Origin: a virus
Lineage: Duplodnaviria; Heunggongvirae; Uroviricota; Caudoviricetes
IMG/VR virus record: IMGVR_UViG_3300014514_000015
DNA: 6,093 bases
Strand: one strand, 5' to 3'
The translations under genes and the position numbers were made by a program. The notes beneath the pieces are model-generated. The model ran no database searches. It was not told the DNA's origin and saw nothing but the letters and a program-made list of their open reading frames with translations. Positions 671 through 6,048 of the stretch are shown one piece after another; the first letter of the stretch is position 1, and each line of letters starts with the position of its first letter.

Positions 671-910
671 ATGGGTAGCATTAACCTGCGTATTGACGAT
701 GAACTTAAAGCGCGTTCTTACGCCGCGCTTGAAAAAATGGGTGTAACTCCTTCTGAAGCGCTTCGTCTCATGCTCGAGTATATCGCTGACAATGAACGCT
801 TGCCGTTCAAACAGACACTCCTGAGTGATGAAGATGCTGAACTTGTGGAGATAGTGAAAGAACGGCTTCGTAATCCTAAGCCAGTACGTGTGACGCTGGA
901 TGAACTCTGA
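671..910 (+). CDS. relB: RelB antitoxin (RelB/DinJ family), 79 aa
   Basis: Translation MGSINLRIDDELKARSYAALEKMGVTPSEALRLMLEYIADNERLPFKQTLLSDEDAELVEIVKERLRNPKPVRVTLDEL is near-identical to E. coli RelB as I recall it; SD upstream; stop overlaps relE start (TGATG). Confidence 0.95.
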   Translation: MGSINLRIDDELKARSYAALEKMGVTPSEALRLMLEYIADNERLPFKQTLLSDEDAELVEIVKERLRNPKPVRVTLDEL

Positions 911-1197
911 TGGCGTATTTTCTGGATTTTGACGAGCGGGCACTAAAGGAATGGCGAAAGCTGGGCTCGACGGTACGTGAACAGTTGAAAAAGAAGCTGG
1001 TTGAAGTACTTGAGTCACCCCGGATTGAAGCAAACAAGCTCCGTGGTATGCCTGATTGTTACAAGATTAAGCTCCGGTCTTCAGGCTATCGCCTTGTATA
1101 CCAGGTTATAGACGAGAAAGTTGTCGTTTTCGTGATTTCTGTTGGGAAAAGAGAACGCTCGGAAGTATATAGCGAGGCGGTCAAACGCATTCTCTGA
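910..1197 (+). CDS. relE: RelE mRNA interferase toxin, 95 aa
   Basis: Translation MAYFLDFDERALKEWRKLGSTVREQLKKKLVEVLESPRIEANKLRGMPDCYKIKLRSSGYRLVYQVIDEKVVVFVISVGKRERSEVYSEAVKRIL matches E. coli RelE; translationally coupled to relB. Confidence 0.95.
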   Translation: MAYFLDFDERALKEWRKLGSTVREQLKKKLVEVLESPRIEANKLRGMPDCYKIKLRSSGYRLVYQVIDEKVVVFVISVGKRERSEVYSEAVKRIL

Positions 1198-1268
1198 ACC
1201 AAAGCATGACATCTCTGTTTCGCACCGAAGGTGACACTTCTGCTTTGCGTTGACAGGAGAAGCAGGCT

Positions 1269-1424
1269 ATGAAGCAGCAAAAGGCGATGTTAATCGCCCT
1301 GATCGTCATCTGTTTAACCGTCATAGTGACGGCACTGGTAACGAGGAAAGACCTCTGCGAGGTACGAATCCGAACCGGCCAGACGGAGGTCGCTGTCTTC
1401 ACAGCTTACGAACCTGAGGAGTAA
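1269..1424 (+). CDS. hokD: Hok-family membrane toxin HokD (RelF), 51 aa
   Basis: Manual translation MKQQKAMLIALIVICLTVIVTALVTRKDLCEVRIRTGQTEVAVFTAYEPEE is a hydrophobic Hok-type peptide; SD AGGAG at 1255-1259. Under 60 aa, so absent from the ORF track. Confidence 0.85.
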   Translation: MKQQKAMLIALIVICLTVIVTALVTRKDLCEVRIRTGQTEVAVFTAYEPEE

Positions 1425-2927: not shown

Positions 2928-3287
2928 ATGCTCATAGATTTGGTTTTACCTTACCCGCCGACGGTGAACACTTACTGGCGACGCCGTGGCAGCACATATT
3001 TTATCTCGGAGGAGGGAAAGCGTTATCGCCGGGCTGTGGCGCTTATTGTTCGCCAGCAGCGGCTGAAATTAAGCCTGTCCGGACGGCTGGCAATAAAAAT
3101 TATTGCAGAGCCACCGGATAAGCGCCGTCGTGACCTGGACAATATCCTGAAAGCACCACTGGATGCGCTGACGCATGCCGGACTTCTCATAGACGACGAG
3201 CAGTTTGATGAAATCAATATTGTGCGCGGTCAGCTCGTTCCTGGTGGGCGGCTGGGGATAAAAATCACAGAACTGGAGTGCGCATGA
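2928..3287 (+). CDS. rusA: RusA-family Holliday junction resolvase, 119 aa
   Basis: N-terminal motif LPYPPTVNTYWRRRG and the DKRRRDLDN acidic catalytic motif typical of RusA; SD AAGAGG at 2916-2921; stop overlaps Q start (ATGA). Confidence 0.85.
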   Translation: MLIDLVLPYPPTVNTYWRRRGSTYFISEEGKRYRRAVALIVRQQRLKLSLSGRLAIKIIAEPPDKRRRDLDNILKAPLDALTHAGLLIDDEQFDEINIVRGQLVPGGRLGIKITELECA

Positions 3288-3973
3288 ATAACCAGTATTT
3301 ACAGTTTGTGCGTGAGCAGCTCATTATCGCCACCGCTGATTTGAGTGGGGCAACAAAAGGTCAGCTTGAAGCCTGGCAGGAGAATGCCATGTTCGATACA
3401 GGGCGTTACAGGCGAAAAAAAATCCGGTACCGCGATGAAGTGACTGGAAAAATGATAACGCGGGATAATCCACCAATCCCGGGAAAACAATCACTGGCGA
3501 ATGGCTCATCAATTGCCCTGGTCAGCCCGGTTGAGTTTTCGACATCATCATGGCGGCGGGCTTTGCTGTCTCTTGAAGAGCATCATAAAGCCTGGTTGTT
3601 GTGGTGTTACGGCGAGAGTATTTGTTGGGAATATCAGATCGCGATAACACAGTGGGCGTGGAATGAATTTAATACTCAATCCGGTACCAGAAAAATTGCA
3701 GGGAAAACGCAGGAACGCCTGAAAAAATTAATCTGGCTGGCGGCGCAGGCAGTAAAAGCAGAACTTTTTGGTGGGGAAGGTTATGAATACCAGGAGCTGG
3801 CATTACTGGCGGGAGTGACAACTAAAAACTGGTCCAAAACATTTACTCGTCACTGGGTTGCAATGAAACACATTTTTCAACGACTGGATAGTGAGGCTTT
3901 ATTGTTTGTAATGAGAACACGTTCAAAACAAAAGGCGGCATTTTCAAAGCAAAGTGTTGCAAAAGTAGATTGA
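3284..3973 (+). CDS. Late-gene antitermination protein Q (lambdoid Q family), about 229 aa
   Basis: Position immediately upstream of a late promoter and terminator, translation resembling Qin-type Q proteins; ATG 3284 with GGAG at 3275-3278. The ORF track starts at in-frame GTG 3278. Confidence 0.75.
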   Translation: MNNQYLQFVREQLIIATADLSGATKGQLEAWQENAMFDTGRYRRKKIRYRDEVTGKMITRDNPPIPGKQSLANGSSIALVSPVEFSTSSWRRALLSLEEHHKAWLLWCYGESICWEYQIAITQWAWNEFNTQSGTRKIAGKTQERLKKLIWLAAQAVKAELFGGEGYEYQELALLAGVTTKNWSKTFTRHWVAMKHIFQRLDSEALLFVMRTRSKQKAAFSKQSVAKVD

Positions 3974-3985
3974 AAGGCATATATT
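3957..3985 (+). promoter_or_regulatory. PR'-like late promoter overlapping the end of Q
   Basis: -35 TTGCAA (3957-3962), 17-bp spacer, -10 TATATT (3980-3985). Confidence 0.45.
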
Positions 3986-4036
3986 TCATGCAAATCTGAT
4001 ATTTTGCCGATTTTGTACGTGATGGCAAAAGCAAAC

Positions 4037-4063
4037 AAAACCCGCCCACAAGCGGGTTTTTTT
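4037..4063 (+). terminator. tR'-like rho-independent terminator, the expected target of Q antitermination
   Basis: AAAA-CCCGC-CCACAA-GCGGG-TTTTTTT: 5-bp GC stem with flanking A and T tracts. Confidence 0.7.
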
Positions 4064-4145
4064 GTGCCACTTATCTCGGATAGACATGGTGAATGCGCTG
4101 GTGGAGGAGCTAAGGGTGATTTTTAACCAGGTGATTTTTGAATGC

Positions 4146-4174
4146 TTGCAACATTGATTTCGTAACGTTATTAT
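4146..4174 (+). promoter_or_regulatory. Sigma-70 promoter for the tRNA operon with a GC-rich discriminator
   Basis: -35 TTGCAA (4146-4151), 17-bp spacer, -10 TATTAT (4169-4174), then CCTGCGCC before the first tRNA at 4184. GGTGATTTTT direct repeat at 4115-4124 and 4130-4139 just upstream. Confidence 0.5.
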
Positions 4175-4183
4175 CCTGCGCCC

Positions 4184-4259
4184 GGCCCTTTAGCTCAGAG
4201 GTGAGAGCGAGCGACTCATAATCGCCAGGTCGCTGGTTCAAATCCAGCAAGGGCCACCA
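4184..4259 (+). tRNA. ileZ: tRNA with CAU anticodon, probably Ile2 (lysidine-type, ileZ-like), 76 nt
   Basis: Cloverleaf folded by hand: acceptor GGCCCTT/AAGGGCC, anticodon loop CTCATAA, T-arm GCTGG-TTCAAAT-CCAGC, encoded CCA. Ile versus Met cannot be decided from sequence alone. Confidence 0.85.
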
Positions 4260-4266
4260 TCACATA

Positions 4267-4343
4267 CCGCCATTAGCTCATCAGGATAGAGCACCAGCCT
4301 TCGAAGCTGGTTGCGCGGGGGTCGAGTCCTCGATGGCGGTCCA
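4267..4343 (+). tRNA. argN: tRNA-Arg with UCG anticodon (argN-like), 77 nt
   Basis: Acceptor CCGCCAT/ATGGCGG, D-loop with A20, anticodon loop CTTCGAA (C35 present), encoded CCA. The T-loop GTCGAGT and the C1-G72 pair are atypical. Confidence 0.75.
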
Positions 4344-4356
4344 TTATCTGTACCCT

Positions 4357-4433
4357 GCGTTGTTAGCTCAACCGGACAGAGCAATTGCCTTCTAAGCAAT
4401 CGGTCACTGGTTCGAATCCAGTACAACGCGCCA
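4357..4433 (+). tRNA. argO: tRNA-Arg with UCU anticodon (argO/argU-like), 77 nt
   Basis: Acceptor GCGTTGT/ACAACGC, anticodon loop CTTCTAA, T-arm ACTGG-TTCGAAT-CCAGT, discriminator G, encoded CCA. Confidence 0.85.
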
Positions 4434-4447
4434 GACTTATTTTTCCC

Positions 4448-4473
4448 GGCTCGCTTTTGCGGGCCTTTTTTTT
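4448..4473 (+). terminator. Rho-independent terminator after the tRNA operon
   Basis: 7-bp stem GGCTCGC/GCGGGCC (one G-U pair), TTTT loop, followed by eight T. Confidence 0.75.
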
Positions 4474-4673
4474 AAATGTCTCACAATTCAGACGGTTGAC
4501 AGTTGTCTGTTTTGCGGGGAGTTTGTTAAAAGAAACTGGCATGGTGAATCCCCCTGTGCGGAGGGGCAATCAGCGAGTAGGTATATGGGATAATCGCGGA
4601 TTCAGGTGCTGGTACTGAATTCACCGGGAGGCACCCGGCACCATGCAGTTGACTGAAACCATGTATACTCTCA

Positions 4674-4703
4674 GGCCCCACGCACATGTGTTGGGGCCTT
4701 TTT
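4674..4703 (+). terminator. Rho-independent terminator in the cargo slot
   Basis: Stem GGCCCCA/TGGGGCC with an 11-nt loop, followed by TTTTT. Confidence 0.55.
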
Positions 4704-4709
4704 ACATGC

Positions 4710-5508: not shown

Positions 5509-6048
5509 ATGAACGCAAAAATCAGATACGGCCTGTCGGCTGCCGTTCTGGCACTGATTGCCGTCGGTGCGCCCGCGCCTGATATTCTCGACCAGTTTCT
5601 GGATGAAAAAGAAGGTAACCACACAACGGCATACCGCGATGGTTCCGGCATCTGGACCATCTGTCGGGGTGCCACGATGGTGGATGGAAAACCCGTTTTT
5701 CCCGGTATGAAACTGNNNNNNNNNNNNNNNNNNNNNNNNNNNNNNNNNNNNNNNNNNNNNNNNNNNNNNNNNNNNNNNNNNNNNNNNNNNNTAAAGTACC
5801 ACTGACCGAACCACAAAAAGCGGGTATCGCGTCATTTTGTCCCTATAACATTGGCCCCGGTAAGTGTTTTCCATCGACGTTTTATAAGCGGCTGAATGCT
5901 GGTGATCGTAAGGGCGCATGCGAGGCGATTCGCTGGTGGATAAAAGATGGTGGGCGCGATTGCCGCATACGTTCAAATAACTGCTATGGACAGGTTATTC
6001 GTCGTGACCAAGAAAGCGCATTAGCCTGTTGGGGAATAGATCAGTGAG
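5509..6048 (+). CDS. SAR endolysin (T4-lysozyme-like, GH24), interrupted by an assembly gap and with an apparent +1 frameshift near the 3' end
   Basis: N-terminus MNAKIRYGLSAAVLALIAVGA is a signal-anchor-release domain; catalytic pattern E35-x8-D44-x5-T50. After the gap the translation VPLTEPQKAGIASFCPYNIGPGKCFPSTFYKRLNAGDRKGACEAIRWWIKDGGRDCRIRSNNCYGQVI continues the lysozyme fold. That frame stops at 6006-6008; the expected tail RRDQESALACWGIDQ is in the +1 frame and ends at TGA 6046-6048. Confidence 0.75.
5716..5791. other. Assembly gap of 76 N inside the endolysin gene
   Basis: Run of N; reading frames on either side are inconsistent with the gap length, so the length is an estimate (about 71 nt expected from homolog length). 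Confidence 0.95.

What the first reader, a model, noticed from the sequence alone, without database searches (positions are those of the whole stretch)
4146..4433. Phage-borne tRNA operon with its own promoter, including an Arg tRNA with a UCG anticodon
Three tRNAs sit between Q and the lysis genes, as in Stx phages (ileZ-argN-argO), here without stx downstream. They have a dedicated sigma-70 promoter with GC-rich discriminator, so they could be expressed from the prophage independently of Q. As far as I recall, E. coli does not carry a chromosomal tRNA-Arg(UCG), so this gene would add decoding capacity for CGA/CGG; the Ile-CAU and Arg-UCU genes cover the rare AUA and AGA/AGG codons.
Basis: partly seen in the sequence, partly recalled or inferred. 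Interest (0 to 1): 0.5.

Follow-up and report, generated by a model that had tools for sequence, protein, structure and literature searches.

The report
Known prophage tRNA cassette ileZ-argN-argO
This is the well-known three-tRNA cassette (Ile-CAU, Arg-UCG, Arg-UCU) that lambda-like prophages of E. coli, including Shiga-toxin phages, carry between the late-gene regulator Q and the lysis genes; here it is the common toxin-free form, so it is real but ordinary.

Summary
Three tRNA genes lie on the + strand at 4184-4259 (CAU), 4267-4343 (Arg-UCG) and 4357-4433 (Arg-UCU). TTGCAA-17-TATTAT (4146-4174) and a GC-rich discriminator precede them; a hairpin plus U8 terminator follows (4448-4473).

The window is a Qin-like lambdoid prophage of E. 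coli, identical over the cassette query (4100-4480) to several complete genomes where NCBI annotates tRNA-Ile, tRNA-Arg, tRNA-Arg. The cassette is 90-93% identical to ileZ-argN-argO of Stx2 phages. About 54% of complete E. coli genomes carry a match.

Homology to other phages starts at the -35 and ends after the terminator, so this is a self-contained promoter-to-terminator unit. In a Stx2a phage, stx2AB sits exactly at window 4474/4477, so the window is the stx-less form, which is the commoner one.

Additions and caveats:
- The cassette probably lies downstream of the late promoter and its terminator (3957-4067), so it is also in the Q-dependent unit.
- This copy of Arg-UCG carries a minority U54G change in the T-loop.
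- Arg-UCG is the least conserved of the three genes.
- In related prophages the same tRNA body carries other anticodon arms.

K-12 has no Arg-UCG gene. Prophage genes are enriched in AUA, AGA, AGG, CGA and CGG. Verdict: already known, low interest.

The parts
3278..3973 (+). Late antiterminator Q, phage-82 type (context, not part of the cassette)
   Evidence: Pfam PF06323 Phage_antiter_Q, E 2.3e-91. RefSeq annotates it 'bacteriophage antitermination protein Q'.
3957..3985 (+). Candidate late promoter pR' (TTGCAA-17-TATATT), overlapping the end of Q. A -10-like GATATT at 3998-4003 follows, a possible sigma-dependent pause element. Inferred.
   Evidence: Promoter scan; sequence. The region is found together with the 3' end of the 82-type Q in related loci.
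3990..4067 (+). Candidate short pR' leader RNA ending in terminator tR' (hairpin 4037-4060 followed by U7). Inferred.
   Evidence: Fold -26 kcal/mol, z -3.6. Full-length but sub-threshold match to isrK (RF01394): 22.7 bits against a 50-bit gathering score, E 0.005, at 3990-4062. [quoted passage not shown]
4146..4174 (+). Cassette promoter: -35 TTGCAA (4146-4151), 17-nt spacer, -10 TATTAT (4169-4174)
   Evidence: Among 28 distinct upstream variants, the mean frequency of the commonest base is 0.95 in the -10 and 0.87 in the -35, against 0.73-0.79 in flanks and spacer. BLAST homology to other loci typically begins here.
4175..4183 (+). GC-rich discriminator CCTGCGCCC; the predicted start site near 4181-4182 leaves a leader of only a few nucleotides
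   Evidence: Sequence. Most but not all related alleles are GC-rich here. The start site is an inference from spacing.
4184..4259 (+). tRNA-Ile2-like (anticodon CAU; homologue of ileZ), encoded CCA
   Evidence: 67/76 identical to K-12 ileX against 53/78 to metT. Acceptor pairs C4-G69 and C5-G68 are read directly from the sequence. RefSeq calls it tRNA-Ile. An A27-C43 mismatch is shared by the whole family.
4267..4343 (+). tRNA-Arg(UCG) (homologue of argN), with C1-G72, U73, A20, C35, G36 and encoded CCA. This copy has G at position 54 of the T-loop and A at position 26.
   Evidence: 51.2 bits. The majority allele has U54 and scores 56.0 bits; other alleles score 43-44. There are no stem mismatches in this copy.
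4357..4433 (+). tRNA-Arg(UCU) (homologue of argO), encoded CCA. This copy has A15 where the majority has G15.
   Evidence: (70.1 bits).
4448..4473 (+). Intrinsic terminator of the cassette (GGCUCGC-UUUU-GCGGGCC plus U8)
   Evidence: -14 kcal/mol, z -3.6. Conserved downstream of argO in related loci. BLAST homology to Stx phages ends here, at 4474.
4474..4477 (.). Junction that the 1.33-kb stx2AB operon occupies in Stx2a phage WGPS6; empty here
   Evidence: Window 4119-4474 aligns to L002 3501-3856, and window 4477-4567 aligns to L002 5190-5279, which is after stxB.

Best explanation
This is a self-contained tRNA 'moron': its own sigma-70 promoter, three tRNA genes and its own terminator, carried in the late-operon leader of a lambdoid (Qin-like) E. 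coli prophage. It is the stx-less form of the ileZ-argN-argO cassette known from Stx phages such as 933W.

Shown here:
- the three genes, their anticodons and their cloverleaf fits;
- their homology to annotated ileZ, argN and argO;
- cassette borders that coincide with the promoter and the terminator;
- enrichment of the matching codons in prophage genes.

Inferred mechanism: in the lysogen, host RNA polymerase starts at 4146-4174 and stops at the 4448-4473 terminator, giving a tricistronic precursor. RNase P and 3' exonucleases trim it; CCA is encoded in all three genes. After induction, Q-modified polymerase coming from pR' (about 3957-3985) reads through tR', the cassette and its terminator, which adds more tRNA just when late proteins are made.

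Inferred decoding roles:
- The CAU tRNA would be lysidinylated by TilS and read AUA.
- The UCU tRNA would read AGA/AGG.
- The UCG tRNA would give a Watson-Crick reader for CGA (and CGG), which the host otherwise reads by inosine wobble or with tRNA-Arg(CCG).

Together they would ease translation of AT-rich, rare-codon-rich phage and accessory genes.
For: - tRNA calls and scores.
- The 4100-4480 cassette query is 100% identical to E. coli chromosomes where the genes are annotated tRNA-Ile/Arg/Arg inside a prophage (dicB, hokD, DUF968, rusA, Q, holin, lysozyme, terminase).
- 289 phage records match, many annotated ileZ/argN/argO.
- Homology in 123 other loci usually begins at window 4140-4150 and ends at 4470-4480.
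- The same trio is found in 119 of 124 loci.
- The -10 and -35 are conserved above their surroundings at a fixed distance from the tRNA.
- Terminator folds.
- stx2AB maps as an exact insertion after the terminator.
- Codon use per 1000 codons, prophage against a 15-gene K-12 core sample: AUA 6-9 vs 3.7, AGA 6-10 vs 0.6, AGG 3.5-10 vs 0.6, CGA 4-10 vs 3.7, CGG 8.5-13.6 vs 5.7.
- The seven K-12 Arg tRNA genes fetched are ACG x4, CCG, UCU and CCU, with no UCG among them.
- The CAU tRNA is 88% identical to ileX.
Against: - No expression, processing, charging or modification data exist for this locus; I found no open-access paper that tests the promoter.
- The promoter match alone is not above chance.
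- This copy of Arg-UCG has G54 in place of the near-universal U54 (established tRNA knowledge), and its body is atypical: C1-G72 and U73, whereas 11 cellular Arg-UCG tRNAs all start with G and the 10 that end in an encoded CCA have A or G at position 73.
- Variation in argN and argO is all one-sided. There are no compensatory changes, and 39% of argN loci and 24% of argO loci have a stem mismatch.
- About half of the cassettes sampled through ileZ lack a recognisable Arg-UCG.
- The host already decodes all five codons.
- The host codon baseline is a small 15-gene sample.
Confidence: 0.7

Rival explanations
1. Counter-defence cargo rather than codon supply. On this reading the cassette is one allele of a swappable tRNA slot. 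Its members replace host tRNAs that are destroyed by tRNA-cleaving immune systems or toxins, for example a colicin D-like nuclease acting on tRNA-Arg.
For: - Related prophages carry, behind the same ileZ and even the same promoter allele as the window, a set of Lys(UUU)-like, Thr(UGU) and Gly(UCC) genes.
- P2 OLD depletes Thr(UGU) and Gly(UCC), and a lambdoid phage's Thr(UGU) rescues infection (bioRxiv 10.64898/2026.07.10.737580).
- The argN body carries several different anticodon arms.
- Colicin D is cited as targeting tRNA-Arg.
Against: - Among the defence-system papers I read, none reports Ile2(CAU), Arg(UCG) and Arg(UCU) together as a target set. The only overlap is minor Ile(CAU) cleavage by a Schlafen nuclease.
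- The anticodon loop of ileZ is identical to that of host ileX, and the stem differs only at the 27:43 pair. It therefore shows no evasion signature.
- All three anticodons correspond to codons that are rare in the host and enriched in the prophage, which codon supply explains directly.
Confidence: 0.12
2. Decaying passenger. The cassette, or at least Arg-UCG in this copy, is a relic in a largely defective Qin-like prophage and is no longer functional.
For: - U54G in this allele, and an Rfam score of 51 bits against about 70 for its two neighbours.
- Many alleles have stem mismatches or have lost CCA, and no compensatory changes are seen.
- In some loci slot 2 is unrecognisable or fused with argO.
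Against: - This copy has no stem mismatch, an intact anticodon loop, A20/C35/G36 and an encoded CCA.
- The exact allele recurs at 100% identity in at least 9 complete genomes.
- Promoter and terminator are intact.
- RefSeq does not flag any of the three as a pseudogene.
- ileZ has few variants: 8 among about 123 loci.
Confidence: 0.15
3. The CAU tRNA is an elongator methionine tRNA, as ARAGORN and several phage records label it, and not an AUA-reading Ile2 tRNA.
For: ARAGORN calls it tRNA-Met. Some phage records annotate the homologue as tRNA-Met.
Against: - It is 88% identical to K-12 ileX against 68% to metT/metU.
- It keeps C4-G69 and C5-G68 and the ileX anticodon loop CUCAUAA. That these acceptor pairs are TilS determinants is from memory of Ikeuchi et al. 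2005.
- RefSeq calls it tRNA-Ile; that NCBI's pipeline assigns this by isotype-specific scoring is from my own knowledge of it.
- ARAGORN labels every CAU anticodon as Met by default (my knowledge of the program).
Confidence: 0.05

Closest known systems
ileZ-argN-argO tRNA cluster of Stx2 phages (933W, VT2-Sakai, Stx2a_WGPS6 and others)
   Same: Same three anticodons in the same order, and the same 7-nt and 13-nt spacers. It is 90-93% identical from the -35 to the terminator, in the same place between Q/pR'-tR' and the lysis genes.
   Different: No stx2AB follows the terminator here. The Q gene is the phage-82 type (PF06323), whereas WGPS6 has a different 162-aa Q. This allele differs from the family majority at single bases: U17A in ileZ, G26A and U54G in argN, G15A in argO.
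Escherichia phage PhiR49_2 (PV340570) and identical E. coli prophages (e.g. NZ_AP022105)
   Same: 98-100% identical cassette followed by the same STnc100, holin, YdfR and lysozyme genes, with no stx.
   Different: PhiR49_2 has a different, 126-aa Q and a methylase fragment upstream, which shows that the cassette moves independently of the Q module.
Host rare-codon tRNAs ileX/ileY (Ile2 CAU) and argU (Arg UCU)
   Same: Same anticodons and anticodon loops. ileZ is 88% identical to ileX. A20, C35 and U36/G36 (Arg identity elements, from established knowledge) are present in both Arg genes.
   Different: argO is only 71% identical to argU. Arg-UCG has no counterpart among the seven K-12 Arg tRNA genes fetched.
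Phage 'morons' (promoter-gene-terminator units inserted in lambdoid late operons; Hendrix/Juhala concept, from my own knowledge)
   Same: The cassette is flanked by its own promoter and terminator. Its homology borders coincide with these, and it is found with at least three Q types.
   Different: The cargo is tRNA rather than protein. The tRNA content of the unit itself varies between prophages.

Membership tests
ileZ-argN-argO cassette of lambdoid/Stx phages | Three tRNA genes in the order CAU, UCG, UCU on one strand with short spacers | tested here: met
   Spacers of 7 and 13 nt match the commonest pattern in related loci.
ileZ-argN-argO cassette of lambdoid/Stx phages | Sequence homology to records annotated ileZ, argN and argO | tested here: met
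   92.7% identity over 353 nt to Stx2a_WGPS6, with all three genes under the match; 289 phage records match.
ileZ-argN-argO cassette of lambdoid/Stx phages | Location downstream of Q and upstream of the stx and/or lysis genes | tested here: met
   Q at 3278-3973; holin, DUF1327 protein and lysozyme downstream. stx is absent, but it is not a defining feature: only 5 of about 123 IMG/VR cassette loci have stx within 1.5 kb downstream.
tRNA-Ile2 (lysidine, AUA-reading; ileX type) | CAU anticodon on a body closer to Ile2 than to Met tRNAs, with the C4-G69 and C5-G68 acceptor pairs | tested here: met
   88% identical to ileX against 68% to metT; the pairs are read from the sequence. RefSeq calls it tRNA-Ile. 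That these pairs are TilS determinants is from memory of the literature.
tRNA-Ile2 (lysidine, AUA-reading; ileX type) | C34 converted to lysidine by TilS, and charging by IleRS | not testable with these tools
   Needs mass spectrometry or an aminoacylation assay.
Arginine tRNA (E. coli ArgRS substrate) | Identity elements A20, C35 and G36 or U36 (established knowledge) | tested here: met
   Both Arg genes have A20 in the D-loop, and C35 with G36 (4267-4343) or U36 (4357-4433), read. Actual charging was not tested.
Canonical elongator tRNA fold | Cloverleaf with a T-loop carrying U54-U55-C56 | tested here: inconclusive
   All stems pair, but the T-loop of the 4267-4343 gene reads GUCGAGU, with G54. 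It still passes Rfam (51.2 bits against a 29-bit threshold) and ARAGORN. The functional effect is unknown.
Moron (autonomous promoter-to-terminator unit) | Own promoter and own terminator, with mobility independent of the flanking modules | tested here: met
   Promoter and terminator motifs are conserved, homology borders coincide with them, and the unit is found with at least three Q types and with or without stx. Promoter activity itself was not tested.
Stringently controlled stable-RNA promoter | GC-rich discriminator and growth-rate/ppGpp control | tested here: inconclusive
   The discriminator CCTGCGCCC is GC-rich, but some alleles have AT-rich discriminators. Regulation cannot be tested here.

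The most novel reading that the evidence does not exclude
The cassette may be one allele of a modular, promoter-driven tRNA slot in lambdoid prophages, whose content is shaped by conflict with tRNA-cleaving defence systems rather than only by codon usage.

In related prophages, the same ileZ and the same promoter allele drive a Lys(UUU)-like gene built on the argN body, plus Thr(UGU) and Gly(UCC). These match the reported targets of PARIS and of P2 OLD.

The argN body (C1-G72, U73) appears with at least four different anticodon arms. On this reading, the Ile/Arg/Arg trio in the window would protect against an Arg- or Ile-directed tRNase that has not yet been identified.
Probability: 0.12. Interest if true: 0.55.

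Novelty: already known. Interest (0 to 1): 0.15.

Why it matters
For the finding as stated, it matters little. The cassette has been named in Stx phage records for years and is routinely annotated in E. coli genomes, about half of which carry a copy.

Three points have modest value:
- They document that the unit runs from promoter to terminator.
- The stx operon sits exactly at its 3' border in Stx phages, so this window shows the site without stx.
- The Arg-UCG gene is the weakest and most changeable member of the trio.

If the prophage tRNAs are expressed in lysogens, they would relax rare-codon limits for horizontally acquired genes in many E. coli strains.

The more interesting lead lies outside the window. 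Sister cassettes carry Lys-like, Thr and Gly tRNAs that match the targets of the PARIS and OLD defence systems.

Tried and rejected
(1) STnc100 (4510-4709) as the pR' leader, which would have put the tRNAs upstream of the late promoter. Rejected. The 5' part of STnc100 accompanies the cassette with at least three unrelated Q types, and it lies after stxB in a Stx2a phage. A promoter, a -10-like element and a terminator sit directly after Q.

(2) Literature searches for ileZ/argN/argO and for experiments on this promoter found nothing usable. Plunkett et al. 1999 is not held, so what I say about that paper is from memory.

(3) A genome-contig scan with the argN anticodon arm, meant to find a chromosomal donor. 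The 16-mer turned out to be unspecific: only 11 of the 120 loci returned held a tRNA-Arg(UCG). Those cellular genes are at most 80% identical to argN; all begin with G1, and the 10 with an encoded CCA have A or G at position 73.

(4) A search for phage 82 or annotated pR'/qut features near this Q returned only unannotated relatives.

(5) A covariation test for the tRNA stems: all variation is one-sided, so it neither supports nor contradicts the fold.

(6) ARAGORN's Met label for the CAU tRNA was considered and rejected.

(7) The first sample of related loci was picked by an exact argN anticodon arm and so could not show variation there. It was repeated with an ileZ pattern, which changed the picture of slot 2.

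Full report
**Observation**

ARAGORN reports three tRNA genes on the + strand: 4184-4259 (anticodon CAT), 4267-4343 (Arg, TCG) and 4357-4433 (Arg, TCT). Rfam's tRNA model matches all three above its 29-bit gathering score, at 70.6, 51.2 and 70.1 bits.

It reads TTGCAA (4146-4151), a 17-nt spacer, TATTAT (4169-4174), then CCTGCGCCC up to the first base of the first tRNA. A GC-rich hairpin followed by eight U lies at 4448-4473.

**Context**

- The window encodes RelB, a RelE/ParE-family toxin, HokD, a DUF968 protein, RusA, and a phage-82-type Q (PF06323, 3278-3973).
- After the tRNAs come a P21-type holin, a DUF1327/YdfR protein and a lysozyme.
- The 4100-4480 cassette query is 100% identical to the chromosomes of several complete E. 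coli genomes.
- In NZ_AP022105 the matching segment sits inside a Qin-like lambdoid prophage (dicB, ydfC, hokD ... terminase, portal, capsid).
- There RefSeq annotates the three genes as tRNA-Ile, tRNA-Arg and tRNA-Arg, with no pseudogene flag.

**Relation to known cassettes**

The segment 4100-4480 matches 289 phage records, mostly Stx2 phages. In these the genes under the match are annotated ileZ, argN and argO, at 90-93% identity. A match is present in 2953 of 5426 complete E. coli genomes, with up to 12 places per genome.

In Stx2a_WGPS6, window 4119-4474 aligns with the tRNA block up to its terminator. Window 4477-4567 aligns with sequence after stxB. The 1.33-kb stx2AB operon is therefore an exact insertion at window 4474/4477.

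Among about 123 IMG/VR prophage loci carrying the cassette, only 5 have stx within 1.5 kb downstream, and the cassette occurs with at least three unrelated Q types. The stx-less form in the window is the common one.

**A self-contained unit**

BLAST homology between the window and the other loci typically starts at window 4140-4150, which is the -35. It ends at 4470-4480, just past the terminator.

The sequences upstream of the first tRNA fall into several divergent families. Even so, TTG...-17-TATTAT is kept at a fixed 9 nt from the tRNA 5' end. Over 28 distinct variants, the mean frequency of the commonest base is 0.95 in the -10 and 0.87 in the -35, against 0.73-0.79 in the spacer and flanks.

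As a single consensus match the site is not significant. Its conservation and its position at the homology border are what support it. The variants are related to one another, so this is supportive rather than decisive. Promoter activity itself remains an inference.

**Where the late promoter is**

I first considered that STnc100 (4510-4709, Rfam 140 bits) might be the pR' leader. That would have put the tRNAs outside the late transcription unit. I reject this for three reasons.

- The 5' part of STnc100 follows the cassette whatever the Q type.
- It is 100% identical in PhiR49_2, which has a different, 126-aa Q.
- It lies after stxB in a Stx2a phage.

Directly after Q there is instead TTGCAA-17-TATATT (3957-3985), a -10-like GATATT (3998-4003), and a strong hairpin followed by U7 (4037-4067; -26 kcal/mol, z -3.6). 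Positions 3990-4062 give a full-length but sub-threshold match to isrK (22.7 bits, E 0.005). [quoted passage not shown] This region is found together with the 82-type Q in related loci.

I therefore infer the order Q, pR'-tR', tRNA cassette, STnc100, lysis genes, the same layout as in Stx phages. The tRNAs would be made from their own promoter in lysogens and also by Q-modified polymerase after induction.

**The individual tRNAs**

*CAU tRNA (4184-4259).* It is 88% identical to K-12 ileX and only 68% identical to metT/metU. It keeps the ileX anticodon loop and the C4-G69 and C5-G68 pairs. It is Ile2-like; ARAGORN's Met label is its default for any CAU anticodon.

*UCU tRNA (4357-4433).* It is 71% identical to argU, with the same anticodon loop.

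*UCG tRNA (4267-4343).*
- It has A20, C35 and G36, but an unusual C1-G72 pair and U73.
- Eleven cellular Arg-UCG tRNAs all start with G; the 10 that end in an encoded CCA have A or G at position 73.
- In this window its T-loop reads GUCGAGU, with G at position 54, where the family majority has U. This allele is in a small minority of loci.
- Rfam scores for argN alleles are 56.0 bits (majority), 51.2 (window) and 43-44 (two other common alleles). The other two tRNAs score about 70.
- This copy has no stem mismatch.

*Variation across loci.* All variation in the stems is one-sided, with no compensatory changes. A stem mismatch is present in 39% of argN loci and 24% of argO loci.

**Host complement and codon use**

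The K-12 arginine tRNA genes I fetched are annotated ACG (x4), CCG, UCU and CCU. That these seven are the complete K-12 set is established knowledge, not something I scanned the genome for. Through this cassette, however, about half of E. coli strains do have one.

Codon frequencies per 1000 codons in prophage genes (L001 and PhiR49_2), against a 15-gene K-12 core sample:

| Codon | Prophage genes | K-12 core sample |
|---|---|---|
| AUA | 6-9 | 3.7 |
| AGA | 6-10 | 0.6 |
| AGG | 3.5-10 | 0.6 |
| CGA | 4-10 | 3.7 |
| CGG | 8.5-13.6 | 5.7 |

This fits the codon-compensation idea, although the host baseline is small. CGA and CGG are already decoded in E. coli by the ICG and CCG tRNAs (established knowledge). 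Arg-UCG would add a Watson-Crick reader for CGA, not a new capacity.

**Variation of the cassette in relatives (outside the window)**

My first sample of related loci was selected by the exact argN anticodon arm, so it could not show variation there. A second scan, selected by the ileZ arm instead, changed the picture of the second gene position ('slot 2').

Only about half of these cassettes have a recognisable Arg-UCG. In the others, slot 2 holds the same tRNA body (CCGCCA... acceptor, D arm, T arm, U73-CCA) with a different anticodon arm:
- UCU;
- an arm that ARAGORN cannot read as a tRNA;
- a 'UUU' arm with loop CCUUUAA, which has C at the near-universal U33 position.

The 'UUU' form is followed by Thr(UGU) and Gly(UCC). 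It uses the same promoter allele as the window, is present in 798 of 5426 complete E. coli genomes, and is annotated tRNA-Lys in RefSeq.

[quoted passage not shown] P2 OLD depletes Thr(UGU) and Gly(UCC), among others (bioRxiv 10.64898/2026.07.10.737580). This suggests a counter-defence role for that sister cassette.

For the Ile/Arg/Arg trio in the window I found no matching target set. The only partial links are colicin D, which is cited as acting on tRNA-Arg, and a minor Ile(CAU) signal for a Schlafen nuclease. The anticodon arm of ileZ is almost the same as that of host ileX. I therefore rate this reading as possible but unlikely for the window.

**Verdict**

It is the long-annotated ileZ-argN-argO cassette in its common stx-less form.

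New details from this check are:
- the promoter-to-terminator borders of the unit;
- the exact stx insertion point at 4474/4477;
- the probable position of the cassette inside the Q-dependent unit;
- the U54G allele of Arg-UCG;
- the plasticity of slot 2 in relatives.

Novelty: already known. Interest: low.

Noticed in passing
Related loci, e.g. L252, L272 (IMG/VR); 798 of 5426 complete E. coli genomes: A gene with the argN body (C1-G72 acceptor, D arm, T arm, U73-CCA) but a different anticodon arm, UCAAC-CCUUUAA-GUUGA. This gives anticodon UUU, with C at the near-universal U33 position. RefSeq annotates it tRNA-Lys. It sits after ileZ, behind the same promoter allele as the window, and is followed by Thr(UGU) and Gly(UCC). 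Lys(UUU) and Thr(UGU) are PARIS targets; Thr(UGU) and Gly(UCC) are P2 OLD targets.
   Followed up: partly
Related loci, e.g. L251 and about 26 others (IMG/VR): Cassettes that ARAGORN reads as ileZ-argO only still hold the argN acceptor, D and T arms in a 100-nt 'spacer', but the anticodon arm is replaced by unrelated sequence (...GAGCAGACGACACGATAACAGGGTTGTTGGTG...). A few loci have an argN 5' half fused to an argO 3' half at the shared CCTTC of the anticodon loop.
   Followed up: partly
window 4510-4709 (+): Strong match to the prophage sRNA family STnc100 (RF02076, 140 bits), ending in a hairpin followed by a U-run at about 4673-4705. Its 5' part follows the tRNA cassette in most related loci and lies just after stxB in a Stx2a phage. 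It is not tied to a particular Q type, so it is not the Q-utilisation site.
   Followed up: partly
window 3957-4067 (+): Candidate late promoter, a -10-like pause element and the terminator tR' directly after Q. This would give a roughly 75-nt leader RNA, which has a full-length but sub-threshold resemblance to isrK and isrJ.
   Followed up: partly
window 671-1424 (+): Three toxin-antitoxin-type genes in a row upstream of the late region: RelB antitoxin (671-910), a RelE/ParE-family toxin (910-1197) and a Hok/Gef toxin (1269-1424; hokD in RefSeq). This is the arrangement seen in the K-12 Qin prophage. No Sok RNA reached Rfam's threshold.
   Followed up: no
window 5716-5791: A run of 76 N interrupts the lysozyme gene (5509 onward). 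This stretch of the window is masked or unresolved.
   Followed up: no
L061 2562-2614 (IMG/VR locus): In one related prophage an AsxR ('anti-stx2 sRNA', RF02703, 88 bits) lies next to STnc100, on the opposite strand.
   Followed up: no
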